From: a virus
Taxonomy: Duplodnaviria > Caudoviricetes
Reading direction: 5' to 3' (one strand)
IMG/VR virus record: IMGVR_UViG_3300034094_000170
Location: 1 to 59,020 of that record
Length of the DNA: 59,020 nt
The position numbers and the translations under genes are program-made. The notes under the pieces were generated by a model that was not told where the DNA came from, did no database searches, and saw nothing but the letters and a program-made list of their open reading frames with translations. This document shows, one piece after another, positions 15,011 through 56,890 of the stretch (positions are counted from its first letter, which is position 1; every line of letters begins with the position of its first letter).

Positions 15011-15167
15011 TGTTATAATGATAATATGGTTTTGTTATTAAAACCATTGAATCGAAACTATTGTGTCATTAATATCAATCCTTTTTATGGATTGTGAATT
15101 GAAATTTAGAGTTTAGTGAGCCTCCCACCAAAAAACCCCCTAACTTTTTAGTTTTTGGGGTTTTTTT
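15011..15167 (+). CRISPR. Short-spacer CRISPR-like mini-array 1, with promoter and terminator
   Basis: TGTTATAAT (15011-19); stem ATGGTTTT/AAAACCAT + TGAATCGAAAC; 17 nt; stem CAATCC/GGATTG + TGAATTGAAAT; terminator 15130-15167. Confidence 0.65.
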
Positions 15168-15326
15168 CTCTACATTATAAATGGTTTTAATGCTTGCTGT
15201 GTATAGGTTATAGTGTTCAAAAAAAAATACTTATTTAATATAACGATTAAAAAGGTGTGTTTTTGACCAACACTTAACACCACAACACTTTCCCACACTC
15301 GGTAGGGGGAGTTTAAAAATCAACAT

Positions 15327-18300
15327 TTAACATTTACCTTTATTTGCTGCAAGGTCATTCAGGACTTGCCTTGCATCACCAGTTGGGTCGTTGCTGACAA
15401 TCACCAGATTTTCAACGTTTACATTAGTGCCACCTCCACTTTCTTCAGATTTAGATACAGGTTTAGGTTGTTTTTTACTACTATCAACCGCTTTCTGTGC
15501 TGATTGTAATTCCTCTTGTAATTTTTGTAATGGTGTTTTAATTTGTTGTGGAGTAAAACCATCAGCACCAGTTGTTTTCAGCTTCCCAGATGCTAAATCA
15601 GCCGTTATTTTTGCAGCTTCTTCCCTAGCAATTTTAGCTTGTTCATAACCACCAGCCGTTGCTTGTTTGGCTGTTAAACCTGATGCAATTCTTTCTTTTT
15701 CAGCTTCATTATTCCATTTATTAATATAATCGTCAATTGCCGCATTAGCTTTTTGCAATCGTGATTCTTCTGCTAATTTATTTATATCGTTTTCGATTTT
15801 TTTCATTTTTTCTAAATCAGAATTTTGATTTTGATTATTGACGTTTTGATTACCATCAGAAACATTGCCATTGATATAAACATTAGTAGCCGTAACTTTC
15901 ATCGATTCAATTATTTCATCTTTAGCTTTTTTAGCTTTTGCATCTGTTGATGTTTTACCATAATCAGAAGTTGTCATACCCGATACAGGTTTACGGTTTC
16001 TGTCAGCTTCAGATAAATAAATTGGTTGAGCAGGTACACTATTATAAGTGACACCAGCATTTACACTAACACCAGCATTATAAGTGACACCACCTTTACC
16101 ACCTTTCTCACTATTTTTTTGTTGCTGTTCTTTAGCTGCTCTAGCTTGGTCTAATATTCTTTGTTGTTGTAAATTTTCGTTAGCTGCGGTTTGGTCAATG
16201 TTTAATTTTTGTTTTTCTAATTCTTGAATTTTGGCGACATTCTCTTTATCAGCTTGTACTGATTGTTCCTGTTGCTGTCTCAATCCCAAAACTTTTTCTA
16301 ATGCTGCCATTTCAGCACTACCAGCACCTCTAGCCTTAGCTTTTTCTATTTCAACTTGCGCTTCTAACGTTGCAATTTCAGCTAATGTTTCTTGACGCTT
16401 GATGTCAATATCTTGTTTTTGTTGAGCTATTTTTAATGTTTCACGTTCAATCTCTTGACGTTGTGCTAAAGATTTTAACTCTTGTTCATATAATTGTTGT
16501 TTAATTTGCTGCTTTTGAACTTCATTTTCTGATAGTTCAGCTAACTGCATTCTAAAATCTAATCGTTGTTTTTCAAGGTTAGAAACAGAATCATTTAATC
16601 CTGATTTTGCTGACTGTAAAGCTGATTGACGGTCAAGTTCAGCATTCTGTAAATCTAATTGTGAAGTTATAAATTCTAATTCAGCTTTTTCTTTTTCAAA
16701 TGATTTAGTTATTTTTTGGATAGCCAAATCCTGTAATTCAAGTTGACGCTGTTGGTCAATTTGTTCTAATTTAGCTTGCTGTTGAATATCAAGATTTTCT
16801 TTTTGTAACCCGTTTAAATTATCTGTTAATATTTTTTGTTCAGTGATACCAGCTAAATGATGACCCTGTATGATTACAAATTGTTCTAAATTATGTAATT
16901 CATTTTCTGATAAACCTTCTAATTTACCTTTCTCTAAATTGAGTTGCGCTTGCAATAATCCAGATTTAGCTTGTAATAACTGACGGTCTAATTCTATATT
17001 GTTTTGTTTTTGACTTAACTCCAATGAAACTTTTTGTGATTCATTCTGTCTTAAAATTTCTTTACGCTGTTGTAAATAAATTTCAGCTTTTAATTGTTCA
17101 ATTTTATTAAAGTCATTGCTCCTGTTAGCAAGCTCTAACTGAAAATCTAAACGTTGTTTATCTAATTCACCAGTTGACTGTAGTATTGTTTGCTGTGCAT
17201 CATATAACTTAGTTTGATTTTCAATTTCTTTTGTAGTTTTTTGAATTTCTAACTCTTGAATTTCTAAATATCTTTGACGCTCAAGATTAGCTAATGCTGA
17301 TTGCTGTTCAACACCAACTCTTTCAGTTTCATTTTGTTGTATAGCCTCAACATTGGTTAACTGTTCTTTAGATGATTTTAATTGTCTTTTAGCGATATCA
17401 ATATCCTGTTTAGATGCTTTATTTAATTCTAATTTTCTTAAATTGGCTTGAGCATCTAATATATCATTTTCAGCTTGGATTCTTTGTTGTTTATGGCTTA
17501 ACTCCAACGAATAACTTTGTGCTTTATTTTGTTCATTAAGAGCTTGTAATTGTAGCGAGTATGATGCAAATTTTAATACTTCTAACGCTTTTATATTATT
17601 AGATTTATTTGCAATTTCGATATTATAATCAACTTGAGATTTTAGAGCTTCACTCTGAGCTTTGTATACTTCACTATTAGAATTTGTTAACTGGATTTTT
17701 CTTTCCAGTTGTTTATTAATTATATCATTTTGATTTTTAGTAATTTCAACTTCTTTGGTTATTCTTTTTTCAGCCTCCTCTATTAATTGTAAATTTCTTG
17801 AACGTTTTGCATCTTTTTTCTGAGTCTCATTTTGAACAGTTAAATTATCTTTTTCTAATTTTTGAACTTCACCTAAATTTTTACGTTGTTCACTGACAAA
17901 ATTTACCTGTTGCTTACGAATATCAACTGTTTGTTGTGCTACAGATATTTCTTCAGCCGTTGCTTTATTTGCAATTAACTGATTAACTTGACTTTCAGCT
18001 TCTAACAATGCAATTTTAGCTTGCATATCAGAACGCTGCATTTCTAACCTTTGTTGAGCTTGGGTTAGTTCTAAAGATTTAGTTTGTAAATCTTGTTTGG
18101 CAGTCAGAGAAGTTAATTGGTTTTGATATATCTCAGCATTAATTTTTTCTTGTTTAGAAATATCACCAGATTTTTCAAATAATTGTTTTTGATATTCTAA
18201 TTGTTTATTTAATTCATCAGACTTACCAGTTGAAACCTGTTCTTTCAAATTAGTTTGTTGAACTTCAAAACCTTTACGTTCAACATAAAAACCTTTATCA

Positions 18301-45291: not shown

Positions 45292-45296
45292 ATATT

Positions 45297-45683
45297 ATGA
45301 ACATTTCACCTTTTGATTTTGCAGCTAACGCCGTTTTAAATTTTGATATACCTTCTGATGGTGTTAAAACTAACGATTTTGGAAATATTGTTAGTGTTAA
45401 AAAAAGTTTAAGGATTGTTGCACTATTAAATATTAAAAAAAAGGATTACCAAAATAGAGAAGGTGCTAATACTACTGATATTGCACTAGAAGGTTATTTG
45501 GTTTCGCCGATTGAATATCCTAAAGAAATTACAGATGGTATGATTGCTAACGCTGAAATAAAACTAAATTCAAATGAAATTAGCAAAGGTACTTTTGTTG
45601 TTTCTAAAAAACCAGAAAATCCTTTTTTATTATCAGCAAAAATTCAAGGGTTTACAAAAATAGAAGGGAATTTTAGAATTTAA
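45297..45683 (+). CDS. Hypothetical protein, possibly head closure
   Basis: 128 aa, follows the portal gene. Confidence 0.5.
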   Translation: MNISPFDFAANAVLNFDIPSDGVKTNDFGNIVSVKKSLRIVALLNIKKKDYQNREGANTTDIALEGYLVSPIEYPKEITDGMIANAEIKLNSNEISKGTFVVSKKPENPFLLSAKIQGFTKIEGNFRI

Positions 45684-45713
45684 TTTTCTTCTATTTTTGT
45701 GTTAGGAATCTGG

Positions 45714-45872
45714 ATTTCAATTCGCATCTCAATATTTTTTTAATATTGAGATGTTATCCTCATTTTTTACAATATTTCAATTTTCAATCCCTATTACTGA
45801 GTATTGTTACCCAAATATCAAAATATCGTTGCCTTATTTCAATTTTCAATCCCTATTAATTAATAGGGATTG
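45714..45872 (-). CRISPR. Short-spacer CRISPR-like mini-array 2, directly downstream of cas7
   Basis: Three stem + 11-nt handle units (AAAATTGAAAT twice, CGAATTGAAAT) separated by 29 and 20 nt. Confidence 0.7.
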
Positions 45873-45887
45873 TTTTAACTATTTCAA

Positions 45888-46748
45888 CTATTTGTCAACA
45901 CTCCAAAAACTTACACTATCTGGAGTATTATCGTAATCAATGGAAATATCATAATCGCTGATACTTCGAGGGATGTCAACATTTTTTTCAACTGACAACA
46001 TCTCAAACAATTTATGACTAGGATAATTACCCCATTTACTGTCATGGGTAAAAATATACAATCCTTGACAGTTCATTGAAGAACGGGCAGAGCTTTTATC
46101 AAATTCCCAACAATTAACAAGCGCATCCCAAAAAAGTTTTAAATCATCTTCAGAAACGTCGCCTTTATTCAAACCAGGATTGTAATGGATTTCAACCTTA
46201 AATAAACCATAAGGGATTAACTCTTTACGACCCATAGTTTTATTGTCCTTGCCCTCAGTTCCCTCAGTAGCGGCACATCGGGTAATTGTTGCTGAAATAG
46301 GCAATACAGGGTCAAACGAACGTCCCCAACTAACTTGTACTGGCCCCCAAACTTGTCCTGCTTTCCATCCAGTAGACAAAACGGCCCCAAACATCCGAAT
46401 ATCAAAATATCTTTGTCGTAGTAATGTCTGAACTTTTTCTTGTTCTTCTGGTGAACCTTCTTTTTTGTTACCTTTTTTGACACTAGGCTCAATCCCTAAA
46501 TCGGTGTAACCTTGGTCAATTTTGTTATTGAGGATACTACCTTCTTTAACAAAAATTTCATGGTTTCCAAGCATTTGAACATAGTTACGAATCTTGCGTT
46601 TAATACAAGCATCGGTCATTAAACCGTGTCGGGTTTCAGAATCGGTTCTTGGCTGATTTCCTGCGTCTGGGTCGCCATTAGGATTACCGTCAGTGCAATC
46701 AACTAATAAGATTGCATCATGTTTTTTGTTAGGGTCAAAGTGGTTCAT
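45888..46748 (-). CDS. cas7: Type I-C Cas7 (Csd2)
   Basis: GNPNGDPDAGNQPRTD, TDACIKRKIRNYV, FDIRMFGAV, GPVQ, TITRCA, TMGRK. Confidence 0.93.
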   Translation of the reverse strand: MNHFDPNKKHDAILLVDCTDGNPNGDPDAGNQPRTDSETRHGLMTDACIKRKIRNYVQMLGNHEIFVKEGSILNNKIDQGYTDLGIEPSVKKGNKKEGSPEEQEKVQTLLRQRYFDIRMFGAVLSTGWKAGQVWGPVQVSWGRSFDPVLPISATITRCAATEGTEGKDNKTMGRKELIPYGLFKVEIHYNPGLNKGDVSEDDLKLFWDALVNCWEFDKSSARSSMNCQGLYIFTHDSKWGNYPSHKLFEMLSVEKNVDIPRSISDYDISIDYDNTPDSVSFWSVDK

Positions 46749-46751
46749 GGT

Positions 46752-47126
46752 TTATTCTTCCTCTTGTTTGTTTTCAGTGTTTTGTTTAGTGTAAAATTCA
46801 GCCCGTCGCTTTGCAAATCCTATGAAAAACAAAGATTTTTGACGGAGTGAAAAATTTTCAGGTAAGTTTTCAGGATTAAATTCTAAAAACTCGGAATCTA
46901 AACAGTTTTGGACGTAAATCGTATTTGTTGCCGATTGTAGATGGTGACAATAACAACCTTGATACAATCGGTCAAATACTTGAAAAGGTGTTGTTGAAAG
47001 TGTTTTAAGAGAACGCAACACATTAGTATCTTCATTGTTTCCTTGATTACGTCCTTTTATTTGTGCAACGTGCATCAAGAAAGCAATCCGACCTAATCGG
47101 TATGCAATATCATCATTTGTTTCCAT
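46752..47126 (-). CDS. cas11: Cas11c small subunit from an internal in-frame start in cas8c (124 aa)
   Basis: In-frame ATG (METNDDIAYRLGR) after A-rich AAAGAAATCAAA; internal translation of Cas11 is established for type I-C. Confidence 0.65.
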   Translation of the reverse strand: METNDDIAYRLGRIAFLMHVAQIKGRNQGNNEDTNVLRSLKTLSTTPFQVFDRLYQGCYCHHLQSATNTIYVQNCLDSEFLEFNPENLPENFSLRQKSLFFIGFAKRRAEFYTKQNTENKQEEE

Positions 47127-48449
47127 TTTGATTTCTTTGATTGTTTGGTTGAGATAGAGCAAAAGACCTTTTACTCTGACAGCAAGAGAATAACTAAAAA
47201 ACTTTAGATTTTCCTCGCTATGGCATTCGGCACAGATTCTATCAATTAGTTTTTGAGCATATTCATCTGGTAATGTTTTACCCAAAAGAGTGTAATAAAT
47301 CAAAGCTGTTTCCACTCTTTGAGTGTAATCACCCGCATCAAAAAAAGCAGCTTTAATCAATGCGTAAATGGGCAAAACTTTACCATCAAGTGATTGTTGG
47401 ATTTCAAGAAAACGTTTGACATTTTCAGCTATTTCATCGGGAGTAGTTTTGTTAATCCCATTGATAGCAATCCTTCCAGCATTACCCTTTAAAATACCAA
47501 GGTAAAACTCAGATGAATATGCTCTGGTGTTTGCTGAAGTTTTACCTCCATAAACACTTTTGAAAAGACCTGAGAATTTTATTGATTCAGGGTCATTCCA
47601 AAACTCATCATTTATTCCCTCCTGATTGACATTTCCCCAATAAACAAACATCTGCTTATTAAGGGTTTGGTGATGATATGGGGAGTTTATTAAGTAGTCA
47701 AGTCCACTTATCACCCCCCATGCTGTATCAATCCCTATAGGCGCATTGTCATTACCTTTAAATCCCCATCCCTGATAGGCAGGTTTATCAAAAGATGTGA
47801 TTGATGCTCCAGTGCTATTGCCACCAGGGATATTTTTTATTTTTTCAGGGAAAACACTCAAAATAATTGGTTGTTTTTCCCCAGTGATGATACAACGTTT
47901 ATCATTCCAATCATCTAAATCTAAACGGTCAAGATATTCAAACCGCCAAAACTCTTGAATTTTTGGAGTGTCAGAAATTAGTTTTGGTTGCTCATCATCT
48001 CCTGTTGTACAGAATGCAAACCTCAACCCTTCACCCATTTTTTTATTAGGAACAGGTTTGCATCCGATTTCTTTGAGATGATTTACAACATCTTTTGTGT
48101 TAACGCTTTCAAGATAAGATATAATTTTGGAAGTGTTAACGTCTAACGTCTTCTTGCAACATCTATGCAGCAACTCCAAATATGCTGCATATTTTTTTTT
48201 ATCCAAACCTAAAACGTATTCACCAACATCAACAATCAAGATAGGAACTGTCCCATTTCTACTCAGTGATGGCACAATCATCCGTTTACCCTGAGTGCTA
48301 AAAACTTTATCCTTTTTGATTCTCTCTGTTTTTAATAATGTGATGGAATTGTTATCAACATTAATCAAAACATCAACTTTTTGAGTGGAATAACCTACGG
48401 GTAATTGCGGGTTTAATGTTTTAGAAAAATCATACAATTCTTTTAGCAT
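46752..48449 (-). CDS. cas8c: Type I-C Cas8c (Csd1)
   Basis: CIITG, GASITSFDKPAY..WG, NAGRIAI, AYRLGR, FFIGF; lies between cas5 and cas7. Confidence 0.88.
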   Translation of the reverse strand: MLKELYDFSKTLNPQLPVGYSTQKVDVLINVDNNSITLLKTERIKKDKVFSTQGKRMIVPSLSRNGTVPILIVDVGEYVLGLDKKKYAAYLELLHRCCKKTLDVNTSKIISYLESVNTKDVVNHLKEIGCKPVPNKKMGEGLRFAFCTTGDDEQPKLISDTPKIQEFWRFEYLDRLDLDDWNDKRCIITGEKQPIILSVFPEKIKNIPGGNSTGASITSFDKPAYQGWGFKGNDNAPIGIDTAWGVISGLDYLINSPYHHQTLNKQMFVYWGNVNQEGINDEFWNDPESIKFSGLFKSVYGGKTSANTRAYSSEFYLGILKGNAGRIAINGINKTTPDEIAENVKRFLEIQQSLDGKVLPIYALIKAAFFDAGDYTQRVETALIYYTLLGKTLPDEYAQKLIDRICAECHSEENLKFFSYSLAVRVKGLLLYLNQTIKEIKMETNDDIAYRLGRIAFLMHVAQIKGRNQGNNEDTNVLRSLKTLSTTPFQVFDRLYQGCYCHHLQSATNTIYVQNCLDSEFLEFNPENLPENFSLRQKSLFFIGFAKRRAEFYTKQNTENKQEEE

Positions 48450-49090
48450 CGCACTACCCCATTTTTCATGATTGCTTCAAAATATTCAGGTTCAACATTA
48501 CCCTTTGTAATCTTTTTTTGTTGATGGTCAAACCATTGAAGCTTGCCTGTTTTACTAGGGTTAAAATTTATCTTTTTGAGAACTTGTCCAAAGTTAAACT
48601 CACCCAAAAGTTCGGGATGTACCTGTTCAGTACCATCAGGAAATTTAAAAGCACAAGCATACTCTTTAACACCCATACATGGTTGTTTGAAACAAGCACC
48701 TTGACTGATTCGCTTGTTTACGATGGCAAAATATTTATCAATTGGGTCTGTTGCCCTTTTAGTCAATTCCATGCCAAAATCAATGATGTAAGCAGGGTTT
48801 TTAAGAACAACAAAATTGCGCTGTGAACGGTCGTCACTGATGATGTAATGTTCTTTGTCGTAACTACTGGTAACGATTTTACTCTTACCCATATTACGAA
48901 AAAAAGAAGCGTATCTGATTGGATTCAGAACTGTTATACTGTTGACCGTATACTCGATTTCCGGTTTCCAGAAAATCGCCTTTAGGATTCCCTCTGCTGC
49001 ACTAGGAGTGAGAAAAGGATATGAAAATGGGTCAGCTTTTGTTTCGGGTTTTGTGAATAAACCATACTCGCCCCACACTTTTAATTGCAT
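48443..49090 (-). CDS. cas5: Type I-C Cas5 (Cas5d, crRNA-processing)
   Basis: KVWGEYGLFTKPE...SYPFLTPSAAEGILKAIFWKP, VLNPIRY, GACFKQPCMGVKEY. Confidence 0.93.
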   Translation of the reverse strand: MQLKVWGEYGLFTKPETKADPFSYPFLTPSAAEGILKAIFWKPEIEYTVNSITVLNPIRYASFFRNMGKSKIVTSSYDKEHYIISDDRSQRNFVVLKNPAYIIDFGMELTKRATDPIDKYFAIVNKRISQGACFKQPCMGVKEYACAFKFPDGTEQVHPELLGEFNFGQVLKKINFNPSKTGKLQWFDHQQKKITKGNVEPEYFEAIMKNGVVRC

Positions 49091-49304
49091 AGGTTTATAT
49101 TTTTAATTCAGTATTTCAATTCGGTTGTTTGCTCTTACTGAATTAAATATACCAATAAAAAGCTAGTTGTAAACATATTTTAGTTTTGATTTTTATATCA
49201 AATAACAAAAAACTTATAAGTTATAATCATATATTTTAATGTTGAAAAATCACATATTTAAGTTAGGATTATCAATTATCTATGTCAAAATTTAGGAAAC
49301 AAAA

Positions 49305-51389
49305 ATGGAATTACACGCCAGGAGATTTATAGTTAATGGTAAATTTATTACACAAGATTTGATAGAGCATCTTAAAGGTGTTGCCAACAAATCAAGTGAT
49401 AAATTTAAAAATATTTCAGTTGATTTAAAAACATTAGCTTTTTATGCAGGGCTATTACATGACGTTGGAAAAGCTAAAAAATCATGGCAAAAATATATGT
49501 TTAAAAAATCGTGGGAAAAACATCTAACAAAAAAATCAGATAAAAAAAAATCAAAAGTTGAAATGGTTTTCCACTCATCAGAGGGTGCTAGAGCTATCAT
49601 GGAACTGTCAGGTGATGACTACCACCCGCTTGCATGGATTATTCAAGCGCATCACACAGAGTTAAAAAACCAAAGTGATTTAGGAAGTGATTATTTTATT
49701 GAAAATTCTAAACATTGGAAAACTTGCCTTGACCGTGTTTTTCCTGGGTTTGATATCAATAAAATTCCAAAATTAAAATTAAATATTTTAAAAAAAGAGT
49801 TGGCAATCAGGATGTTGTATTCAGTTTTAGTTGATTCTGATAGGCTTGATGCTCAAGAATTTGAAGAAAGATATTATAAAAACGTTGTTACACATAAACC
49901 ATCTATCTTGACTGTCTGTAATATATGGTCAAATATACCAGTACCACCACCGGAAAACACTTTGGTATCGGTTGAGCGTAAATATTTTAGAGATATTGTC
50001 AGTGGTTATATCAAAGATAAAAAAACCTGTTACCGATTAATTGGTGCTACTGGAGTAGGAAAAACACTTACATCACTCAACTTTGCATTAGAGCATTGCA
50101 AATATCATAATATGGATGGATTGATTTATGTTGCTCCGTACAAGTCAATCATTGACCAAACTGCTAAGATATATCGTGAATTGTTGAGTGATGATGCTGT
50201 TTTGGAACATCACTCCGATTTTGTACCTAAACCTAAAGATGAAAATGATTATAAGTTATCTTGCCAAAGGTGGGATTATCCGGTGATAGTTACTACTGCG
50301 GTACAATTTTTTGAGTCAATATTTTCTAACAAATCTACCCGATGTCGCAAGCTTCAAGGATTACTCAATAAGGTGATTTTGATTGATGAATACCAAACTA
50401 TTCCACCTAATTTAATTGAATCAATTGCCGATATTTTAAAAAATTTAGTTGAAGATTTTGGATGCACTGTAGTTTTAATGTCAGCTACAGCACCAAATTT
50501 ATCGGGTTTTAATTTACCCCATGTTGACATGATTCCACAATCAGAAGTAAATCGTCAATTTGAAGTTTTGCAGCGTTGTGAGTATGAATTTAAGGAGTTT
50601 GATTATCAAGAAATAGCTAATTTTCCTGGTAAAAAACTTGTAATCGTAAACACCACGAAAACAGCATTAAATTATTTTCAATATTTTGATAGTGTCCAAC
50701 CGGGACAATGGCTACACTTATCATCTCGGATGTGTGTTTCACATCGTAAAGAAGTGATTAAAAAATTAAAAACTGGTAAATATAATTGTGTCAGCACTCA
50801 GATTGTGGAAGCAGGGATTGATATTGATTACCCCACAGTTTTTACAGAAGAATGTCCTTTTGATTCATTGATTCAACGTGGTGGACGTTGTAATCGTGAA
50901 GGTAAATTACCGTCAATGGGTAAAGTTTTTATCATCCCTTGCAGCAATTATCCTGGTCAAGAATACAGACAGTTGGCAATTACAACATCTAATTATATTT
51001 TAAACCATAAAGGCTTTAAACCTGATGAATTGGTTGGCTTATTGAGTAAATATTTTAGTGTGAGAAATTCTAATATTTCATCTGAAATTCAAGATTTAAG
51101 AAAGAATTTAATGTTTAAAGATGTCAACGATAAATTCAAAGTGATTGAGGATGGTATGCCTAATGTTTTATGTGAATGGGGTGATGGAATACAATTAATT
51201 AATCAGTTAAAAAATAAACCAAAATTGACACCTAATGAATGGAAACAATTACAACAATTTACTGCAACAATTTTACCCAAGGATGATAATTTTAAAAATG
51301 TTGTAGAATATGATAATGGTATGAGAGTTTGGAATGATGGATATGATGATAATTTTGGAGTATATATTCAAACTTCATATATTATTTAA
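49305..51389 (+). CDS. cas3: Cas3 HD nuclease-helicase
   Basis: EHL, LLHDVGK, HS, HH, LVDSD (HD domain); ATGVGKT, IDEYQ, MSAT, STQIVEAGIDID, QRGGRCNREG (helicase). Confidence 0.93.
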   Translation: MELHARRFIVNGKFITQDLIEHLKGVANKSSDKFKNISVDLKTLAFYAGLLHDVGKAKKSWQKYMFKKSWEKHLTKKSDKKKSKVEMVFHSSEGARAIMELSGDDYHPLAWIIQAHHTELKNQSDLGSDYFIENSKHWKTCLDRVFPGFDINKIPKLKLNILKKELAIRMLYSVLVDSDRLDAQEFEERYYKNVVTHKPSILTVCNIWSNIPVPPPENTLVSVERKYFRDIVSGYIKDKKTCYRLIGATGVGKTLTSLNFALEHCKYHNMDGLIYVAPYKSIIDQTAKIYRELLSDDAVLEHHSDFVPKPKDENDYKLSCQRWDYPVIVTTAVQFFESIFSNKSTRCRKLQGLLNKVILIDEYQTIPPNLIESIADILKNLVEDFGCTVVLMSATAPNLSGFNLPHVDMIPQSEVNRQFEVLQRCEYEFKEFDYQEIANFPGKKLVIVNTTKTALNYFQYFDSVQPGQWLHLSSRMCVSHRKEVIKKLKTGKYNCVSTQIVEAGIDIDYPTVFTEECPFDSLIQRGGRCNREGKLPSMGKVFIIPCSNYPGQEYRQLAITTSNYILNHKGFKPDELVGLLSKYFSVRNSNISSEIQDLRKNLMFKDVNDKFKVIEDGMPNVLCEWGDGIQLINQLKNKPKLTPNEWKQLQQFTATILPKDDNFKNVVEYDNGMRVWNDGYDDNFGVYIQTSYII

Positions 51390-51642
51390 TTCCGACAACC
51401 TAGAGGTGTACAGCTAACAATGTCTAAAAAATAGTCTACACCTCTCACCACACAACCCTTTGAGCGATTCTAACTTAAAAATAGGTTGGCGGAAACGCTA
51501 GAATACTTATGGGTAAACATTTTTTGATGATTATTACTAATATCCACTTGACAAATAATGAATACATTTGCTATTATTAATTCAGGTTGTCGGAATCAAA
51601 CCTTGAAAACTAAATATATCAAGGGTTTGAAAAGCAATGCAA
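51390..51642 (+). promoter_or_regulatory. CRISPR leader with promoter
   Basis: TTGACA(51548)-18 nt-TATTAT; inverted TTCCGACAACCT/AGGTTGTCGGAA; CCTTGAAAACTAAATATATCAAGGGTTT next to repeat 1. Confidence 0.75.
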
Positions 51643-52119
51643 GTATCAACTCCTAGCAATGGGAGTTGCGAATTGAAACATATCGGTGTTCGAGTTGTTC
51701 CCCCTTGCTCACCTGTATCAACTCCTAGCAATGGGAGTTGCGAATTGAAACATCACCTATGAGCAAAAAATCGATAATGCTATTCAAGTATCAACTCCTA
51801 GCAATGGGAGTTGCGAATTGAAACGCGTGGCTTGGCTTGCCTTGCTTGGCTGTGAGAGAAAAGTATCAACTCCTAGCAATGGGAGTTGCGAATTGAAACA
51901 AGCCTTCCTGAACACTGCCAACAGCCCCAATGTAAGTATCAACTCCTAGCAATGGGAGTTGCAAATTGAAACGATTTGTTCTATGTTGGTAATACTATCA
52001 GCATTTAGCAGTATCAACTCCTAGCAATGGGAGTTGCGAATTGAAATAATTATCCGACGCGATACCAATGATGAAATATTTGGTATCAACTCCTAGCAAT
52101 GGGAGTTGCGAATTGAAAT
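51643..52119 (+). CRISPR. CRISPR array: 7 x 37-nt repeat GTATCAACTCCTAGCAATGGGAGTTGCGAATTGAAAC, 6 spacers of 35-38 nt
   Basis: Repeats start at 51643, 51715, 51788, 51863, 51936, 52011 and 52083; stem CAACTCC/GGAGTTG followed by an 11-nt handle. Confidence 0.97.
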
Positions 52120-52232
52120 CATGAATTGGTCATTAACAATCTCGTTTTTATCGAGATTGAGAATTGAAACCAATCATGGCTTGCAGACCATTTCTAAACA
52201 ACAATTAGAAATGAGAATTAAAATACGATAAT
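52120..52232 (+). CRISPR. Short-spacer extension of the array with two sequence-divergent repeats (mini-array 3)
   Basis: 17 nt, then CAATCTCG/CGAGATTG + AGAATTGAAAC; 18 nt, then CATTTCTAA/TTAGAAATG + AGAATTAAAAT. Confidence 0.75.
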
Positions 52233-53567
52233 TTGACACTCCCCGCTCTAAAGAGACGGGGATTCTTGGTTCACAGAGATTACTTGCTTAGACAGAATTG
52301 CTTCTGAAAAAGTAGAGGTATTCTCTCCCCAAGCGTTTATTGGGTCGAGCCCAAAGGTTCCGGTATGCCCTACCGTACTTAGTCCCCTTTTAAGGATGTT
52401 GATTGCGGCGTTTTCATCCCTATCCAAAACACATCCACACTTGCACTGATGGGTTCTAGTCGATAAAGATTTTTTGACAGTTTCACCACAGTTTGAACAG
52501 TTTTGGCTTGTATAGTTCGGTGCGACAGCAATCGTTATCTTGCCAAATTTAACCCCAAAATACTCTATCCATTCCCGAAACTGATACCAGGCCGCATCAT
52601 TTATCGATTTAGCTAGACAATGATTCTTGACTAAGTTCTTAACTCTTAAATCCTCGTAGGCTATCACATCGCTAGAGTGAACTACGCACCTTGCTAATTT
52701 CACAGCAAAGTCTTGACGTTGCCTACTTACTTTAAGATGAGCTTTAGCTAATCTTTGTCTAGCTTTTTGACGATTTTTACTTCCCTTTTTCTTTTTAGAT
52801 AATCGCCTTTGAAGTCGTTTTAATCGTTTCTCAGACTTTCTCAAGAATTGAGGATTATCAACCTTGTTGCCATTGTTATCTGTATAGAAAGAAGCCAAAC
52901 CTACATCTAAGCCAATACACTTACCTGATGGTTTAACATCTTCTTTAACGTCACAAGAAAGGACAAATTGACAATAATAACCGTCCGCTCTCCGAATCAA
53001 CCTAACCCGTTTAATATCGGATTCTTGAAAGTACCCTAAATCCCAAGTTCCTACCAACTTAAGAACACCAATGTTTTTCTTGTCAGTGAACTTAACAGTT
53101 TTCGGGCTAAGAAGCTTCCATCCTGATTGTTTGTATTCAACAGAGCGAGATTTTTTAAATTGAGGATACCCCTTTTTGCCTGATACTTTACGTTTACAGT
53201 TGTCGTAAAAACGACTAATTGAACTCCAAGCACGTTCAGCACTTGCCTGTCTAGCAGTTGAATTAAGTTCATCGGCAAATTTAAAGTCCTGAGCTAATTC
53301 TTTAGAATATCGGTATAAATCGTTCTTACCCGTACCTTTTGTATCCATCCATAACCTTACACATTTGTTACGGATGAATTGAGCAGTACGAATAGCATCG
53401 TCTATGGCTTGATACTGTTGAGTTTTAGCTTTAACTTTAAACTCTAAGACAAACATTTTACGCAGGGGGGACTTAGACAAAATCAGTATAGCACAATAAA
53501 AGTTAAGTTAACAAGCTATAGTTTAAAAAGCCGTCCTAAAAGGACGGGGCTTTAACCCAAAATTTCG
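52233..53567 (-). mobile_element. IS200/IS605-family element with tnpB only (IS1341-like)
   Basis: Right-end hairpin GAATCCCCGTCTCTTTAGAGCGGGGAGTGTCAA; left-end hairpin near 53530-53550, preceded by TTTAC; left boundary approximate. Confidence 0.8.
52248..53456 (-). CDS. tnpB: TnpB RNA-guided endonuclease
   Basis: RuvC motifs GLDVG, YEDL and DRDENAA; zinc finger CSNC...CKC; likely ATG at 53456. Confidence 0.92.
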   Translation of the reverse strand: MFVLEFKVKAKTQQYQAIDDAIRTAQFIRNKCVRLWMDTKGTGKNDLYRYSKELAQDFKFADELNSTARQASAERAWSSISRFYDNCKRKVSGKKGYPQFKKSRSVEYKQSGWKLLSPKTVKFTDKKNIGVLKLVGTWDLGYFQESDIKRVRLIRRADGYYCQFVLSCDVKEDVKPSGKCIGLDVGLASFYTDNNGNKVDNPQFLRKSEKRLKRLQRRLSKKKKGSKNRQKARQRLAKAHLKVSRQRQDFAVKLARCVVHSSDVIAYEDLRVKNLVKNHCLAKSINDAAWYQFREWIEYFGVKFGKITIAVAPNYTSQNCSNCGETVKKSLSTRTHQCKCGCVLDRDENAAINILKRGLSTVGHTGTFGLDPINAWGENTSTFSEAILSKQVISVNQESPSL

Positions 53568-53587
53568 GTAAAGTGAAAAAAGACGAT

Positions 53588-53623
53588 AAAAACCCCTGAT
53601 ACGTCTCTATACCAGGGGTTTTT
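53588..53623. terminator. Bidirectional intrinsic terminator (probably the original end of the CRISPR transcript)
   Basis: AAAAACCCCTG...CAGGGGTTTTT. Confidence 0.65.
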
Positions 53624-53757
53624 CAAACAAAACAAACAAAAGAAATAATTGAAACATATCAATTTATGTTGTTATGACTACAAATAAAACAATTAATATT
53701 TTGTCATAACCATAACAACATCAACATTGTAACCTAAACACCTAAAGGTGTCAAGTT

Positions 53758-53994
53758 TTAATTTATGTTGATTTTACTCACTTTTTCTTTAACTTCTTTA
53801 ATCCAATTTATTGCAGGTTGATTGAGTTTGATTTGTTCCTCTGTATTTTGCCCTAAATTTTTTAGATGATTTGATAATCGACCATTGTTGATTTTTTCTT
53901 GTAACTGCAATTTTAATTGCTCAACTTCTTTAATTAAATCATCTCTTTCTTGCTCTAAAGCTTTGATGTTTGCTTGTTTTTTGATGTCATTCAT
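53758..53994 (-). CDS. Small coiled-coil hypothetical protein
   Basis: 78 aa; a TGCTATGAT -10-like element lies upstream. Confidence 0.55.
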   Translation of the reverse strand: MNDIKKQANIKALEQERDDLIKEVEQLKLQLQEKINNGRLSNHLKNLGQNTEEQIKLNQPAINWIKEVKEKVSKININ

Positions 53995-54054
53995 TGTTTT
54001 GCCTTGTTGTTTTACATATTTATATCATAGCACAAAATACAGCTTTTGCAATAC

Positions 54055-54083
54055 TTGACATATTTGTTGACAATGTGTAAAAT
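54055..54083 (+). promoter_or_regulatory. Sigma70-type promoter
   Basis: TTGACA-17 nt-TAAAAT. Confidence 0.65.
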
Positions 54084-54336
54084 AAGAATACTAAGATATA
54101 ATAACAAATAAATATGGTAACAGTAACTTGGCAAAATGAGCAAAAAAGATGTTTCCAGTCAACAGGTAAAATTAACAGTGATGGCGATTTTATCTATAAC
54201 GGTAACTGGGTATCATATCTTGATAAATATAATTACTCTTTTCATCAATTTTAAGGAGTAAAAGGAAAAAAAAGAAATTATCAAAAAAGGTAATTTTGAG
54301 ATTGTTTAATTTTTTAGTTAAAATAAAGGAAAAAGC

Positions 54337-54558
54337 ATGAGTTATGTAGCAGATAGAGATTGGCTAGAAAGTTTGAAAGTTGGTGATAAAGTTGTCGTAA
54401 AAGACAACAAAAACGCCATAAAACCAATCAACGCAATAATAACAAAGGTTACAAAAAAACTCATTTATGCAAACTATAACGAGTTTTCAAGACAGTCAGG
54501 AAAGATTAATACCAACAAGAGCGGAAGCAATTATTATTACCTGAGCAAAAGAGAGTGA
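54337..54558 (+). CDS. Small hypothetical protein (SH3-like LKVGDKVVV)
   Basis: AAGGA Shine-Dalgarno-like element; 73 aa. Confidence 0.55.
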   Translation: MSYVADRDWLESLKVGDKVVVKDNKNAIKPINAIITKVTKKLIYANYNEFSRQSGKINTNKSGSNYYYLSKRE

Positions 54559-54598
54559 ATTGACACTCCCCGCTCTGAAGAGACGGGGATTCTACATT

Positions 54599-55780
54599 CT
54601 ACGTCAGAATTTGCTCAACCAGGTTTTCACCAAGAAGAGTAGAGACTCCAACTCCTGTAGCGTTAATTCGGGAATGCCCTTCCCTATTTTTAGCTAAATT
54701 CAGAATGTTAATTGCAGCGTTTGTATCTCTGTGCAACTCACATCCACAAGTACAAACATGGGTGCGAGTTGATAGAGATTTTTTCACAATTACCCCACAA
54801 TTAGAACATTTCTGTGAAGTGTAATGGGGTGGAACTGGTATTGCCAATTTATCAAATTTAGCTGCAAAATATTCTATCCATTGTCGGAACAAATACCAAC
54901 TGGCATCACTAATTGATTTAGCTAAACAGTGGTTTTTAACTAAATTCTTAACACTTAAATCTTCGTAGGCTACTACATCGTTAGATGTGCATACGTTACG
55001 CGCTAGTTTTTTAGCGTGTTCATTCCGTTGCCTGCTTACTTTTAAGTGTTTTTTAGCGTAAACTTTTCTGGCTTTCCGTCTTCCTGATGAACCTTTAACC
55101 TTTTTATAGATTTGTCTCTGAGATTTTTTAATCGACGTTTCCGCCTTTCTTAGAAACTTGGGATTTGGTTCTTGATACCCGTTAGAGTCTGTATAGAAAG
55201 ATTCTATTCCAACATCCAGTCCGATTTCCTTTCCGGTTTTCGGTTGAACATCAGTGACGGTAATATTCAGGCAAAATTGACAGTAATATCCATCAGCGCG
55301 ACGAATTAAACGAATCCGTTTAATATCTTTGACGTTGTAAGTATGGATATCCCATTTTCCTAAAAGTTTAAGTTCACCAATACCTTTTTTGTCAGTTATG
55401 GTAATTCTTCTTTTAGTGGGATGCAATGACCAACCCGATGTTTTATATTCAACAGAACGACAATCTTTCTGAAATCTAGGAAATCCTTTCTTTCCAGAAA
55501 CCTTTTTCTTACAATTTTCGTAAAAACGAGAAATTGCCGACCATGCTCGTTCCGCAGCAGCTTGTACTGCCATTGAATTTAAGTCTTTGACAAAATCGAA
55601 TTGTGAACGAAGTTCTGTAGAATACTTGTTTAAAGCAAATCGATTAATTTTGGTATCTTTAGGTGCGTCCATCCAATACCGAATAGACTTGTTTCTAATA
55701 AACTGTACCGTTTTAATCGCCTCATCAATCGCTTTGTACTGATGAGGTTTTGCTTTGATTTTGTATTCTATAACTATCAT
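54599..55780 (-). CDS. tnpB: TnpB RNA-guided endonuclease
   Basis: GLDVG, YEDL, HRDTNAA; CSNC...CTC. Confidence 0.92.
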   Translation of the reverse strand: MIVIEYKIKAKPHQYKAIDEAIKTVQFIRNKSIRYWMDAPKDTKINRFALNKYSTELRSQFDFVKDLNSMAVQAAAERAWSAISRFYENCKKKVSGKKGFPRFQKDCRSVEYKTSGWSLHPTKRRITITDKKGIGELKLLGKWDIHTYNVKDIKRIRLIRRADGYYCQFCLNITVTDVQPKTGKEIGLDVGIESFYTDSNGYQEPNPKFLRKAETSIKKSQRQIYKKVKGSSGRRKARKVYAKKHLKVSRQRNEHAKKLARNVCTSNDVVAYEDLSVKNLVKNHCLAKSISDASWYLFRQWIEYFAAKFDKLAIPVPPHYTSQKCSNCGVIVKKSLSTRTHVCTCGCELHRDTNAAINILNLAKNREGHSRINATGVGVSTLLGENLVEQILT

Positions 55781-55872
55781 TGATTCGACCTGTCAATGGG
55801 TTGTCTGTTTGCTACTATCAACCTTAACACAGTAAACTAGATTTGTCGATAAAAATATCAGAACAACCAAAT

Positions 55873-56283
55873 ATGAAACTGAAGTCTATAGATTACAAGC
55901 ATTACAACCACTCAGTCGGATTAGCTTGTGTCCACCTGGTTTGGATTCCAAAACGAAGAAAGCGTGTGCTAGTTGGAAACGTAGCAACACGCTGTCGGGA
56001 GATATTTTATGAATTAGCAATTGAGAAAGAATGGGAGATTAAAGCACTGGAGATAGCTCCTGACCATATTCATTTATTTATCTGCCATCAACCTAATTAT
56101 TCGATTAGTCAGATTGTGCAAGCTTTCAAAGGGAGATCGTCGTGTTACCTCAGAAGAGAATTTCCTGATTTACTGAAACTTCCTAGTTTATGGACTCGCT
56201 CCTATTTTCACACAACTGCTGGTAGTGTTAGCTCGAAAGTTATCATGGAATATATTAATGACCCCCATCACAGTACCCATTAA
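55873..56283 (+). CDS. tnpA: IS200-type Y1 transposase
   Basis: HLVWIPKRR, PDHIHLF (HUH), LWTRSYF, EYI (catalytic Tyr). Confidence 0.92.
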   Translation: MKLKSIDYKHYNHSVGLACVHLVWIPKRRKRVLVGNVATRCREIFYELAIEKEWEIKALEIAPDHIHLFICHQPNYSISQIVQAFKGRSSCYLRREFPDLLKLPSLWTRSYFHTTAGSVSSKVIMEYINDPHHSTH

Positions 56284-56366
56284 AAGACAGGCGCTTAAAA
56301 GCGCTGCTTGCCTTCATCCACGAACTGAAGTTACGTGGTTTTCGGCTCTGCCAATAATAAACTGAT

Positions 56367-56403
56367 AAAACCCCGTGATTAATATAATCACGGGGTTTTT
56401 TTT
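56367..56403 (+). terminator. Intrinsic terminator
   Basis: AAAACCCCGTGATT...AATCACGGGGTTTTTTTT. Confidence 0.7.
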
Positions 56404-56507
56404 ACAACCGTTGCGCTACTTATTTGGTAGTATCCAAAAAGTTCTAAATTTATCATATCATATTTTCAATTAATGTTATAATTAATTTAGTACAATAAAC
56501 AAACAAA

Positions 56508-56723
56508 ATGAAAACAGTACCATTAACAAAAGAAAATCTTTCACCTGATGTAATTCTAAACCTTAAAAAATTAAATATTAACATTGATGATTGTTTTATT
56601 ATGAAAGATTATTGGAATTTTAACTTTTCCAGACAAAATGGTAGAATTATACACGGTCAGGATGAGTATAAAATTTGGAGAGATGTAATCGGAGGTGATT
56701 GGTTGTGGGTAGAAAATCAATAA
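56508..56723 (+). CDS. Small hypothetical protein upstream of mini-array 4
   Basis: 71 aa; TGTTATAAT at 56474-56482. Confidence 0.55.
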   Translation: MKTVPLTKENLSPDVILNLKKLNINIDDCFIMKDYWNFNFSRQNGRIIHGQDEYKIWRDVIGGDWLWVENQ

Positions 56724-56735
56724 TATAATATTAAA

Positions 56736-56875
56736 AAAATTAAAATAGATGAGCGACTAACTAACAATACATAATTAATTATGTATTGAGAATTGAAATA
56801 GATGAGCGACTAACTAACAATACATAATTAATTATGTATTGAGAATTGAAATAATTATGTATTGAGAATTGAAAC
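56736..56875 (+). CRISPR. Short-spacer CRISPR-like mini-array 4 (53-nt tandem unit)
   Basis: [AGATGAGCGACTAACTAA + palindrome CAATACATAATTAATTATGTATTG + AGAATTGAAAT] twice, then a half repeat ending AGAATTGAAAC. Confidence 0.7.
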
Positions 56876-56890
56876 AAATGAGTAAATAAA

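What the first reader, a model, noticed from the sequence alone, without database searches (positions are those of the whole stretch)
15011..56890. Dispersed short-guide crRNA-like units matched to a phage-encoded type I-C Cascade
Seen: besides the canonical array, four clusters (15026-15105 +, 45714-45872 -, 52120-52224 +, 56736-56875 +) hold nine hairpin units. Most stems are unrelated in sequence (ATGGTTTT, CAATCC, CAATCCCTATTA, CATCTCAATATT, CAATCTCG, CATTTCTAA, CAATACATAA). Every stem is followed by exactly 11 nt resembling the canonical CGAATTGAAAC, and eight of nine close with a C-G pair. Handle-to-next-stem gaps are 17, 17, 18, 18, 20 and 29 nt, versus 39-42 nt in the normal array. Established: Cas5d cuts at the 3' base of the stem leaving an 11-nt 5' handle; shortened type I guides can bind DNA without triggering Cas3; CreA/CreR RNAs repress transcription; solitary repeat units can act as RNA anti-CRISPRs (Racr). 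Inference: the phage may use one Cascade for both cutting (long spacers) and a multi-guide regulon of ~13-16-nt guides that silences host or phage genes. The alternative is that they are decoys for host Cas proteins. Standard CRISPR finders would likely miss them because the repeats are not identical.
Basis: partly seen in the sequence, partly recalled or inferred. Interest (0 to 1): 0.93.

Follow-up and report, generated by a model that had tools for sequence, protein, structure and literature searches.

The report
Phage crRNA-like mini-arrays beside own Cascade
A cyanobacterial-type phage that carries its own type I-C CRISPR cutting machinery also carries four small sets of repeat-like hairpins with very short spacers, which look like built-in guide RNAs for silencing or decoy use, but no target could be found.

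Summary
Outside the 7-repeat array (51643-52119), four clusters hold nine hairpin + 11-nt-handle units and one half unit. Stem >=8 bp plus handle occurs 7 times, against 0.195 expected. A covariance model built only from non-window I-C repeats recovers six units at E<0.01 and nothing unrelated below 0.17. All 48 basal stem pairs in 8 distinct units are Watson-Crick despite sequence change. A related phage keeps one unit in the same place with a compensatory pair change. The contig encodes cas5d, cas8c, cas7 and cas3, but no cas1/2/4 was found.

My best reading (0.5) is crRNA-like mini-arrays cut by Cas5d and loaded into shortened Cascade as non-cutting guides. This is close to the I-C crlRNAs and viral "Cracr arrays" in two bioRxiv preprints, except that this phage supplies its own Cascade.

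No target was found in the contig, a related phage, ten cyanobacterial I-C loci or five cyanobacterial genomes. No RNA evidence was obtained. Decoy use against a host system is therefore not excluded. I rate it a new variant of a known kind.

The parts
15011..15019 (+). TGTTATAAT, an extended -10-like box 7 nt before cluster 1. This is an inferred promoter. It is conserved as TGTTATGAT in related phage G402.
   Evidence: Sequence; G402 sequence. The consensus scan did not list it because it has no -35.
15026..15058 (+). Cluster 1 unit 1: 9-bp hairpin plus handle TGAATCGAAAC.
   Evidence: R1 E=0.14. A homologous unit with a compensatory G-C to A-T change lies at the same junction in G402.
15059..15075 (+). 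Short spacer-like stretch, 17 nt from handle to next stem.
15076..15105 (+). Cluster 1 unit 2: CAATCC/GGATTG hairpin plus handle TGAATTGAAAT.
   Evidence: R1 E=3e-4 (hit 15072-15105).
15106..15168 (+). Terminal spacer-like stretch (about 24 nt), then a G+C hairpin with a U-run that looks like a terminator.
   Evidence: Fold. Not listed by the simple scan, because its loop exceeds 8 nt.
45836..45872 (-). Cluster 2 unit 1: 11-bp hairpin plus handle AAAATTGAAAT, 16 nt after the cas7 stop codon.
   Evidence: R1 E=5.7e-4. It has the same 7-bp stem base (CAATCCC/GGGATTG) as the array repeat of related phage contig L164.
45774..45806 (-). Cluster 2 unit 2: 7-bp stem with one mismatch, 8-nt loop, handle AAAATTGAAAT. 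It is preceded by a 29-nt spacer-like stretch (45807-45835).
   Evidence: R1 E=4.7e-4.
45714..45753 (-). Cluster 2 unit 3: 12-bp hairpin plus handle CGAATTGAAAT. It is preceded by a 20-nt spacer-like stretch (45754-45773).
   Evidence: R1 E=0.047.
45654..45713 (-). Terminal spacer-like stretch plus a terminator hairpin. The terminator is homologous to the one that ends the array of L164.
   Evidence: Fold; comparison.
45888..46748 (-). cas7 (type I-C Csd2).
   Evidence: Pfam PF05107, E 1.7e-85. The closest relatives are cyanobacterial.
46752..48449 (-). cas8c (Csd1).
   Evidence: Pfam PF09709, E 1.1e-63.
48443..49090 (-). cas5d, the pre-crRNA endonuclease family.
   Evidence: Pfam PF09704, E 2.1e-21. 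It matches solved I-C Cas5 chains named pre-crRNA processing endonuclease, E 1e-29 to 1e-34.
49305..51389 (+). cas3 (HD nuclease plus helicase).
   Evidence: Pfam Cas3_HD, DEAD and Cas3-like_C_2.
51548..51577 (+). Leader promoter-like site: TTGACA, 18 nt, TATTAT with an upstream TG. It lies in a leader homologous to those of G247 and L164.
   Evidence: 11 of 12 matches. Leader similarity.
51643..52119 (+). Canonical I-C array: 7 repeats of 37 nt and 6 spacers of 35-38 nt.
   Evidence: R1 E 5e-8 to 4e-6.
52120..52232 (+). Cluster 3, in order: 17-nt spacer-like stretch, unit 52137-52170, 18-nt stretch, unit 52189-52224, then the first 8 nt of the terminal stretch.
   Evidence: R1 E=1.7e-6 for 52133-52170 and 3.5 for 52185-52224.
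52233..53567 (-). TnpB-only IS200/605-type insertion that interrupts the terminal stretch of cluster 3. It is not part of the system and is absent from one public assembly.
   Evidence: Pfam OrfB_IS605/TNB. Joint 52232->53568 in run X6.
53568..53625 (+). Continuation of the cluster 3 terminal stretch and its terminator hairpin, as seen in the IS-less form.
   Evidence: Fold.
56724..56729 (+). TATAAT box about 7 nt before the start of cluster 4 (inferred promoter).
   Evidence: Sequence. Not listed because it has no -35.
56765..56875 (+). Cluster 4: two identical units (56765-56799 and 56818-56852) separated by an 18-nt stretch, then a half unit (56853-56875).
   Evidence: R1 E=2.2e-3 for each full unit and 0.57 for the half unit. 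A 53-nt copy-number variant is seen.
56876..56924 (+). Terminal spacer-like stretch and a 15-bp terminator hairpin.
   Evidence: hairpin 56891-56924. Fold.

Best explanation
The four clusters are CRISPR-repeat-derived mini-arrays that encode crRNA-like RNAs (crlRNAs).

Proposed mechanism:
1. Each cluster is transcribed, either from its own -10 box or by read-through from nrdB, cas7 or the array, up to a terminator.
2. The phage's Cas5d cuts at the 3' base of each hairpin.
3. This releases RNAs with an 11-nt 5' handle, a 13-25-nt spacer-like part, and a 3' hairpin or terminator.
4. These RNAs assemble with fewer Cas7 subunits than normal crRNAs.
5. The short Cascade can bind PAM-flanked DNA, but the R-loop is too short to license Cas3. 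It therefore blocks transcription rather than cutting.

The stems have diverged while keeping pairing and the handle. Only what Cas5d reads is under selection, and non-identical repeats resist recombinational loss.

Shown: anatomy, enrichment over chance, family likeness, covariation, conservation of one unit in a relative, and presence of the cognate cas genes.
Inferred: transcription, cleavage, loading, silencing, and every target.
For: - Enrichment: 7 units with stem >=8 bp plus handle, against 0.195 in shuffles.
- Family likeness: model R1, built from 24 non-window I-C repeats, finds six units at E<0.01 and one at 0.047. No unrelated site scores below 0.17.
- Covariation: 48 of 48 basal stem pairs are Watson-Crick across 8 distinct units, with 2-3 pair types at positions 3-6. 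Handle positions 3-5 and 8-10 are invariant.
- Conservation: unit 1 of cluster 1 is kept at the nrdB/tape-measure junction of related phage G402, with G-C changed to A-T and two wobble-compatible changes.
- Cognate genes: full-length cas5d, cas8c, cas7 and cas3 lie on the contig.
- Transcript shape: the hairpins form in context and each cluster ends in a terminator-like hairpin (z -3.3 to -8.0).
- Relatives: the closest cyanobacterial I-C locus (G247, Cas7 72%) has a two-unit mini-array right after cas7, where cluster 2 sits. Other I-C loci carry arrays of six different-stem units with one handle.
- Literature (sections read): I-C crlRNAs are cut 3' of a hairpin, leaving an 11-nt handle, and repress promoters through a 16-bp match plus TTC PAM (10.1101/2024.12.27.630466, section 4). 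Viral crlRNA arrays have short spacers, 17-21 nt in I-F (10.1101/2024.10.29.618823, sections 7, 8, 11).
Against: - No target was found.
  - No guide has a convincing PAM-flanked match in the 59-kb contig, in the 64-kb relative G402 or in ten cyanobacterial I-C loci.
  - TTC plus guide patterns for 8 of 10 guides in five cyanobacterial genomes gave 1 match, inside a coding region, against 5 control matches.
- No RNA data. The only raw-read run laid 2 reads, both under 90% alike.
- Spacer-like parts of 13-16 nt, if the 4-nt repeat flank is subtracted, are shorter than the experimentally shown cases I read (16-bp match; 17-21 nt).
- Three units score weakly with R1 (E 0.14, 0.57, 3.5).
- Two guides and the G402 guide share a TCATT(T)AA core next to the following stem. 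This fits a repeat flank or other motif better than independent guides.
Confidence: 0.5

Rival explanations
1. Anti-CRISPR RNAs aimed at a host type I-C system, either Racr-type decoys or Cracr-type hijackers. In this reading the units mimic host repeats. They soak up host Cas5/Cas7, or they reprogram host Cascade to repress host cas or toxin promoters.
For: - Both kinds are described in phages, including I-C cases. I read passages on RacrIC1 in PMC10651486 and on nine two-spacer I-C Cracr arrays in 10.1101/2024.10.29.618823 section 7.
- The handles of clusters 3 and 4 (AGAATTGAAAC/T) equal the repeat handle of cyanobacterial genome G247.
- The stem base CAATCC(C) equals the repeat of related phage contig L164.
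- Several different stems could mimic several repeat variants.
- The short spacer sizes resemble viral Cracrs.
Against: - The phage's own Cascade reads the same handle, so decoys would also poison it.
- The three genomes that share the phage's IS at 97-99%, which are the likely host lineage, and two others have no I-C Cas7 (0 of 5). They also have no array with this handle.
- Only 13 of 401 sampled cyanobacterial genomes have an I-C Cas7.
- No guide matches any of ten cyanobacterial I-C loci at a TTC site, except one A-rich near-match inside an array.
Confidence: 0.2
2. Cas5d-dependent RNA processing or titration elements that are not guides. The hairpin-handle modules would mark 3' ends of neighbouring transcripts (nrdB, cas7, the array, a 71-aa ORF) for cleavage and protection. 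Alternatively they buffer the amount of free Cas5d/Cascade as a form of autoregulation. In either case the short intervening sequence carries no target information.
For: - All four clusters lie directly downstream of a same-strand gene or array and upstream of a terminator.
- The G402 homologue is a single unit after nrdB with no second repeat.
- Guides share a TCATT(T)AA core rather than looking independent.
- No targets were found.
Against: - Tandem units with regular 17-20-nt spacing are not needed for marking a 3' end.
- Clusters 1 and 4 have their own -10-like boxes.
- I know of no described natural case. This is recalled; I did not search for it specifically.
Confidence: 0.15
3. Decaying leftovers of former CRISPR arrays, with no present function.
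For: - Cluster 2 occupies the place where related phage contig L164 has a leader plus a 3-repeat array, with a homologous terminator.
- Cluster 3 is the distal end of the array, where repeats commonly degenerate.
- Cluster 4 contains a half unit and a recent duplication.
- An IS sits inside the terminal stretch of cluster 3 in this contig.
Against: - Decay should break stems. Instead 48 of 48 basal pairs are intact and some stems are longer than the canonical one.
- A compensatory change is seen between phages.
- Clusters 1 and 4 are far from any array.
- Halving of spacers in five separate places is not expected from decay.
Confidence: 0.1
4. Sigma-70-type promoters. The TTGAAA inside the handle would act as a -35 box. 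The TAACAAT/TAACAT at the next stem, 16-18 nt later, would act as a -10 box. This would explain the 17-18-nt spacing.
For: The scan lists TTGAAA, 16-18 nt, AACAAT/TAACAT at 52113-52140, 56793-56821 and 45780-45751, each with 9 of 12 matches.
Against: - Such 9-of-12 sites are about as common in shuffles of two regions (6 found against mean 3.3; 6 against 5.1).
- This reading does not explain the hairpins, the covariation, or the match to the I-C repeat model.
- The spacing does not fit in cluster 1 or at 52164.
Confidence: 0.05

Closest known systems
Type I-C crlRNAs of bacterial CRISPR loci, that is SRU/CreR-like regulators of Nezha and Gabija (Shu et al., bioRxiv 10.1101/2024.12.27.630466; abstract and section 4 read)
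   Same: - A repeat-like hairpin is cut 3' of the stem, leaving an 11-nt handle.
- The spacer-like part is short.
- The 3' end lies in a hairpin or terminator.
- The element sits beside cas5-cas8c-cas7. Cluster 2 lies right after cas7.
   Different: - Here there are nine units in four places, two of them far from the cas genes.
- They are carried by a phage.
- The spacers are even shorter.
- No promoter target with a TTC PAM was found, whereas the published cases have a 16-bp match.
Viral Cracr arrays (Liu et al., bioRxiv 10.1101/2024.10.29.618823; abstract and sections 7, 8, 11 read, term search)
   Same: - They are phage-borne and multiplexed, with repeat-like units separated by spacers shorter than normal.
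- Type I-C examples are reported.
   Different: - Published Cracrs hijack host Cas proteins and were found through their match to host CreR/CreA. This phage encodes its own Cascade and Cas3.
- No match to any I-C cas promoter was found here.
- The stems here differ from each other within one genome.
- The terms 'own Cas' and 'cyanobacteri' do not occur in that text.
- Its supplementary tables could not be seen and might list similar cases.
RNA anti-CRISPRs, Racr, i.e. solitary repeat units (Camara-Wilpert et al., Nature 2023, PMC10651486; passages read)
   Same: Phage-encoded repeat mimics that are bound and cut by the crRNA endonuclease. An I-C example (RacrIC1) is reported.
   Different: - Racrs are solitary and need no spacer. 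Here the units are arrayed with regular short spacers.
- The phage has its own cognate Cas proteins.
- No acr gene was recognised beside the clusters.
Heterogeneous-stem arrays after cas7 in cyanobacterial and metagenomic I-C loci L141, L151, L152, and the two-unit mini-array of G247
   Same: - One conserved 11-nt handle behind hairpins of different sequence.
- Position directly downstream of cas7.
- No cas1/2/4 nearby.
   Different: - Those arrays have mostly normal-length spacer-like parts (25-50 nt).
- They lie in a single place on chromosomes.
- L141 and L151 have no cas3 within the fetched 13-14 kb.
- Their function is also unknown, and no targets were found in G219.

Membership tests
Type I-C CRISPR repeat / pre-crRNA unit | A hairpin immediately followed by a conserved 11-nt tail that becomes the 5' handle | tested here: met
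   - Direct scan.
- Model R1, built from 24 non-window I-C repeats, hits six units at E<0.01, one at 0.047 and three at 0.14-3.5.
Type I-C CRISPR repeat / pre-crRNA unit | Cognate Cas5d, Cas7 and Cas8c encoded in the same genome | tested here: met
   - Pfam full-length matches.
- Cas5d matches solved I-C Cas5 endonucleases.
Type I-C CRISPR repeat / pre-crRNA unit | Near-identical repeats separated by spacers of about 32-38 nt | tested here: not met
   There are seven distinct stems. Gaps are 17-29 nt, against 39-42 nt in the array.
Type I-C CRISPR repeat / pre-crRNA unit | Cleavage by Cas5d at the 3' base of the stem | not testable with these tools
   The one raw-read run held no reads of this phage.
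Regulatory crlRNA (CreR/CreA-like) | The spacer-like part has a PAM-flanked, PAM-proximal match (about 9-16 bp) to a promoter | tested here: inconclusive
   - No convincing match was found in the contig, G402, ten I-C loci or five cyanobacterial genomes.
- The host genome and the rest of the phage genome are not in hand.
Regulatory crlRNA (CreR/CreA-like) | Encoded within or beside the cas operon | tested here: met
   Met for clusters 2 and 3 only. Clusters 1 and 4 lie 30 kb and 4.6 kb from the cas genes and array.
Viral Cracr array | Virus-borne array of repeat-like units with shortened spacers | tested here: met
   The contig is phage: head, portal, tail and tape-measure genes. Gaps are 17-29 nt.
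Viral Cracr array | Spacer-like part matches the target of a host CreR/CreA or a host cas promoter | tested here: inconclusive
   No match in ten cyanobacterial I-C loci. The true host is unknown.
Viral Cracr array | Works by hijacking host Cas proteins, because the virus has none of its own | tested here: not met
   The phage carries cas5d, cas8c, cas7 and cas3.
Racr (solitary repeat unit decoy) | A solitary repeat mimic of the host's own CRISPR repeat | tested here: not met
   - The units are arrayed.
- The five genomes tested, three of which share the phage's IS at 97-99%, have no I-C Cas7 and no such repeat.

The most novel reading that the evidence does not exclude
The phage runs a self-contained, hard-wired CRISPR-interference regulon. 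One phage-encoded type I-C Cascade is loaded in two ways. Long, exchangeable spacers recruit Cas3 and cut rivals. Up to ten fixed short guides, made from recombination-proof repeats of differing sequence scattered over the genome, silence host or phage genes without cutting. This would work even in hosts that have no CRISPR system of this type.
Probability: 0.25. Interest if true: 0.88.

Novelty: new variant of a known kind. Interest (0 to 1): 0.62.

Why it matters
If the short-guide RNAs are loaded by the phage's own Cascade, this would be a virus that brings both the protein machine and a fixed set of guides to reprogram gene expression. The known cases borrow the host's Cas proteins, so this phage would not depend on host CRISPR. 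It would also be a natural example of one Cascade used for both cutting and silencing, sorted by spacer length. The differing stems show directly which repeat features Cas5d needs: a C-G and A-U stem base plus an 11-nt handle. That is useful for designing stable, non-repetitive multiplex arrays. The same architecture in cyanobacterial chromosomes (cas5-cas8c-cas7 with a six-unit mixed-stem array and no cas3 nearby) suggests a wider class of fixed I-C guide sets that repeat-based CRISPR finders probably overlook.

Tried and rejected
**Target searches, all negative**
- Guides against the whole contig, allowing <=3 mismatches in 16 nt. A second pass ignored positions 6 and 12. No hit had a TTC PAM and few mismatches. 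The only TTC hit was for the A-rich guide of 45754-45773, with 2 mismatches.
- Guides against ten cyanobacterial I-C loci, 183,653 nt: 19 near-matches. One had TTC, again for the A-rich guide, and lies inside an array. One matched 12 of 12 counted positions but had a TTG PAM, inside an ammonium-transporter/kinase gene. I judge both to be chance.
- TTC plus guide patterns for 8 of 10 guides in five genomes: 1 match in a coding region against 5 control matches.
- Guides against G402: 3 near-matches, none with TTC.
- Canonical spacers: no match in G402 (best 27 of 36), in phage records (only chance-level hits with E>=0.6) or in viral contigs for spacer 4. A 29-of-35 BLAST hit in G155 proved to include handle bases and has no PAM.

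**Host search**
- The IS at 52233-53567 is 97-99% identical to copies in G301, G155 and G381. I take these as the likely host lineage, but this is an inference.

**Relatives**
- The Cas7 search of viral contigs found none.
- A two-handle DNA pattern in viral contigs gave 22 loci, of which only L007 was a real I-C array.

**RNA evidence**
- Run X22 (raw reads) laid 2 reads, both under 90% alike. This gives no verdict on expression.
The share fits the size of the IS, but that is a guess.

**Other**
- The heterogeneous array of L141 had no significant match elsewhere in its genome G219.
- Rfam gathering search found only a group I intron. No tRNAs were found.
Supplementary tables of the papers could not be read and may list similar phage arrays.

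Full report
**What the window is.** The 59,020-nt record is a virus record and the only contig of its assembly. GC content is 32%.

Phage genes on the contig:
- major head, scaffold, head and neck proteins;
- a portal (DUF4055);
- tail and decoration proteins and an endolysin-like gene;
- a ribonucleotide reductase small subunit split by a group I intron;
- a primase;
- a 6835-aa ORF with a tape-measure domain.

Both terminal ORFs run off the contig. A related contig, G402, is rated 68% complete at 64 kb. The genome is therefore incomplete.

**The CRISPR-Cas module.**
- cas5d (48443-49090), cas8c (46752-48449) and cas7 (45888-46748) lie on the minus strand.
- cas3 (49305-51389) is divergent on the plus strand.
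- Cas5d matches solved I-C Cas5 chains deposited as pre-crRNA processing endonucleases.
- Downstream of cas3 come a strong promoter-like leader and seven 37-nt repeats with six spacers of 35-38 nt.
- No cas1, cas2 or cas4 was seen among the ORFs scanned with Pfam.
- Cas7 is closest to cyanobacterial proteins. Among 401 sampled cyanobacterial genomes, 13 have an I-C Cas7, and the best, G247, is 72% identical.
- G247 has the same cas3 / cas5-cas8c-cas7 layout and a homologous leader. It has no adaptation genes within 10 kb.

Searches show the units at the stated places.
- Nine hairpins are each followed at once by an 11-nt handle close to CGAATTGAAAC. There is also one half unit at 56853-56875.
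- The gaps are 17, 17, 18, 18, 20 and 29 nt, against 39-42 nt in the array.
- Outside the array, 7 handle sites follow a stem of >=8 bp. Dinucleotide shuffles gave a mean of 0.195 and a maximum of 2 in 200.

As an independent test I built a covariance model only from 24 I-C repeats and repeat-like units of other genomes.
- Its own helix is well supported: 98.1% of cells paired, all 7 pairs with changes on both sides, and 0 of 500 shuffles as high.
- Searched over the window with filters off, it finds the seven repeats (E 5e-8 to 4e-6).
- It then finds 52133-52170 (1.7e-6), 15072-15105 (3e-4), 45774-45810 (4.7e-4), 45836-45876 (5.7e-4), 56761-56799 and 56814-56852 (2.2e-3 each) and 45714-45757 (0.047).
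- Three units are weak (0.14, 0.57, 3.5).
- The best unrelated site scores 0.17.

**Stems: related at the base, free above.** In the eight distinct units the pair next to the handle is C-G in 7, and the next pair is A-T in 7. Positions 3-6 show two or three pair types each, and all 48 cells are Watson-Crick. Handle positions 3-5 and 8-10 never vary, and an A two bases before the stem is invariant. These are diverged copies of one repeat family whose pairing and handle are kept.

**Evidence from relatives.**
1. G402 shares the tail, nrdB and tape-measure region at 54-90% protein identity. At the same nrdB/tape-measure junction it has one unit, ATAGTTTTA-aaaa-TAAAGCTAT-CGAATTGAAAC, behind a conserved TGTTATGAT box.
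   - Against window unit 15026-15058, one pair changed on both sides (G-C to A-T). Two pairs changed on one side but still pair.
   - G402 shows no Cas7 and no array in its 64 kb. It does not cover the portal-side region where the cas genes lie here, so this says nothing about whether that phage has cas genes.
2. Contig L164 has a portal 67% identical. Just after the homologue of the 128-aa ORF, it carries the following, in order: a homologous leader; three I-C repeats with 33- and 42-nt spacers; a half repeat; and a terminator homologous to that of cluster 2. Its stem base CAATCCC/GGGATTG equals that of unit 45872-45836. Cluster 2 therefore sits where an array lay in this phage lineage.
3. 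G247 has a two-unit mini-array right after cas7.
4. Loci L141, L151 and L152 have six units with different stems and one handle after cas7. They lie among hydrogenase, ftsH and sucrose-phosphate synthase genes, with no cas3 in the 13-14 kb fetched for L141 and L151. Mixed-stem I-C arrays are thus not unique to this phage.

**Population data.** The stretch is held by 20 listed public runs from 15 studies, mostly freshwater. The best holder may be the source sample. Laid contigs show the following:
- cluster 2 is unchanged in one 4.4-kb contig;
- one form lacks the TnpB element (joint 52232->53568);
- one form lacks the second IS (54558->56356);
- one form has one fewer 53-nt copy in cluster 4;
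- the leader-proximal spacer is different in one run.

In the IS-less form cluster 3 ends in a terminator. The raw-read run held no reads of the phage, so there is no RNA evidence.

**Transcription signals.**
- Clusters 1 and 4 are preceded by -10-like boxes.
- Clusters 2 and 3 follow cas7 and the array.
- All four clusters end in terminator-like hairpins, and the unit hairpins form in context for clusters 1-3.
- In cluster 4 the two palindromic copies pair with each other in the minimum-energy fold.

**Targets.** None was found; details are under Tried and rejected. The likely host lineage (G301, G155, G381) is inferred only from a 97-99% identical IS copy. It has no I-C Cas7 and no array with this handle.

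**Reading.** Anatomy, family likeness, covariation and the cognate genes make it likely (about 0.8, my judgement) that the units are substrates of an I-C Cas5.
- Acting as non-cutting guides of the phage's own Cascade is the best single reading (0.5).
- The rivals are anti-CRISPR use against a host I-C system (0.2), non-guide processing or titration elements (0.15), decay products (0.1) and promoters (0.05).
- A phage that needs its own Cascade would be harmed by pure decoys. Its likely hosts lack I-C, which favours self-use.
- The lack of any target, and a shared TCATT(T)AA core in three guides, count against independent guides.

**Comparison with the literature.** I-C crlRNAs with an 11-nt handle, a 16-bp promoter match and a TTC PAM are described. 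So are viral multi-spacer crlRNA arrays with short spacers that hijack host Cas proteins. Racrs include an I-C case. A review states that CRISPR systems are rare in phages under 200 kb. The one cyanophage CRISPR paper I read describes an array with a TnpB-like gene, not type I-C. My searches found no report of a phage that pairs its own I-C Cascade with dispersed short-guide units. Supplements were closed, and subscription journals are not covered.

**Verdict.** This is a real, non-random feature. It is a new variant of a known kind, and its function is unproven.

Noticed in passing
window 15327-35834 (-): A single 6835-aa ORF with a tape-measure domain (PF20155, residues about 5011-5196 of the whole protein) and a weak metallopeptidase-like hit. 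This is exceptionally long for a tape measure and would imply a very long tail. The C-terminal part is 64-72% identical in related phage G402.
   Followed up: partly
window 13705-15003 (+), intron 14352-14568: The ribonucleotide reductase small-subunit gene is split by a group I intron (Rfam RF00028, 96 bits). In G402 the two halves are only 48 nt apart, so the intron seems absent there.
   Followed up: partly
window 52233-53567 and 54559-56355: Two IS200/605-family insertions, one tnpB only and one tnpB plus tnpA, with the same hairpin-bearing end. Both are missing from contigs of one public run, so they are recent. The first is 99% identical over its full length to a copy in cyanobacterial genome G301, and it shares 33 nt with Microcystis phage MaMV-DC. 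This is a clue to the host.
   Followed up: partly
L141 3417-3900; L151 10850-11420; L152 1230-1760: Cyanobacterial and metagenomic loci carry cas5-cas8c-cas7 followed by six repeat-like units of different stem sequence and one handle (AGGATTGAAAC or AGGGTTGAAAC). The spacer-like parts are conserved between the three loci. The loci sit among hydrogenase, ftsH, recG and sucrose-phosphate synthase genes, and no cas3 or canonical array was seen in the 13-14 kb fetched for L141 and L151. This may be a fixed-guide I-C module. No targets were found in genome G219.
   Followed up: partly
L135 10603-10780: The closest cyanobacterial I-C locus (G247) has a two-unit mini-array with a 32-nt spacer-like part and its own terminator, between cas7 and the array leader. 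A near relative (L146) lacks the two units but keeps the terminator.
   Followed up: partly
window 54337-54558 (+): A 73-aa ORF matches the phage ProQ C-terminal-like domain (PF24203, E 1e-7), an RNA-chaperone-type fold. It lies between clusters 3 and 4 in a 1.4-kb stretch with few ORFs.
   Followed up: no
window 51680-51714: In contigs of one public run the leader-proximal spacer is replaced by a different sequence. Spacer content therefore varies in the population, although no cas1/2/4 is on this contig.
   Followed up: no
window about 9494-9536 (-): A strong 13-bp hairpin (-16.8 kcal/mol) is followed by AAAATTGAACT, two letters off the handle consensus, at a gene junction in the tail module. 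It is probably a terminator and was not counted as a unit.
   Followed up: no
window 15059-15075, 52120-52136; G402 58562-58580: Three spacer-like stretches share a TCATT(T)AA core just before the next stem or at the same distance from the handle. The meaning is unknown. It may be part of an extended repeat flank.
   Followed up: no
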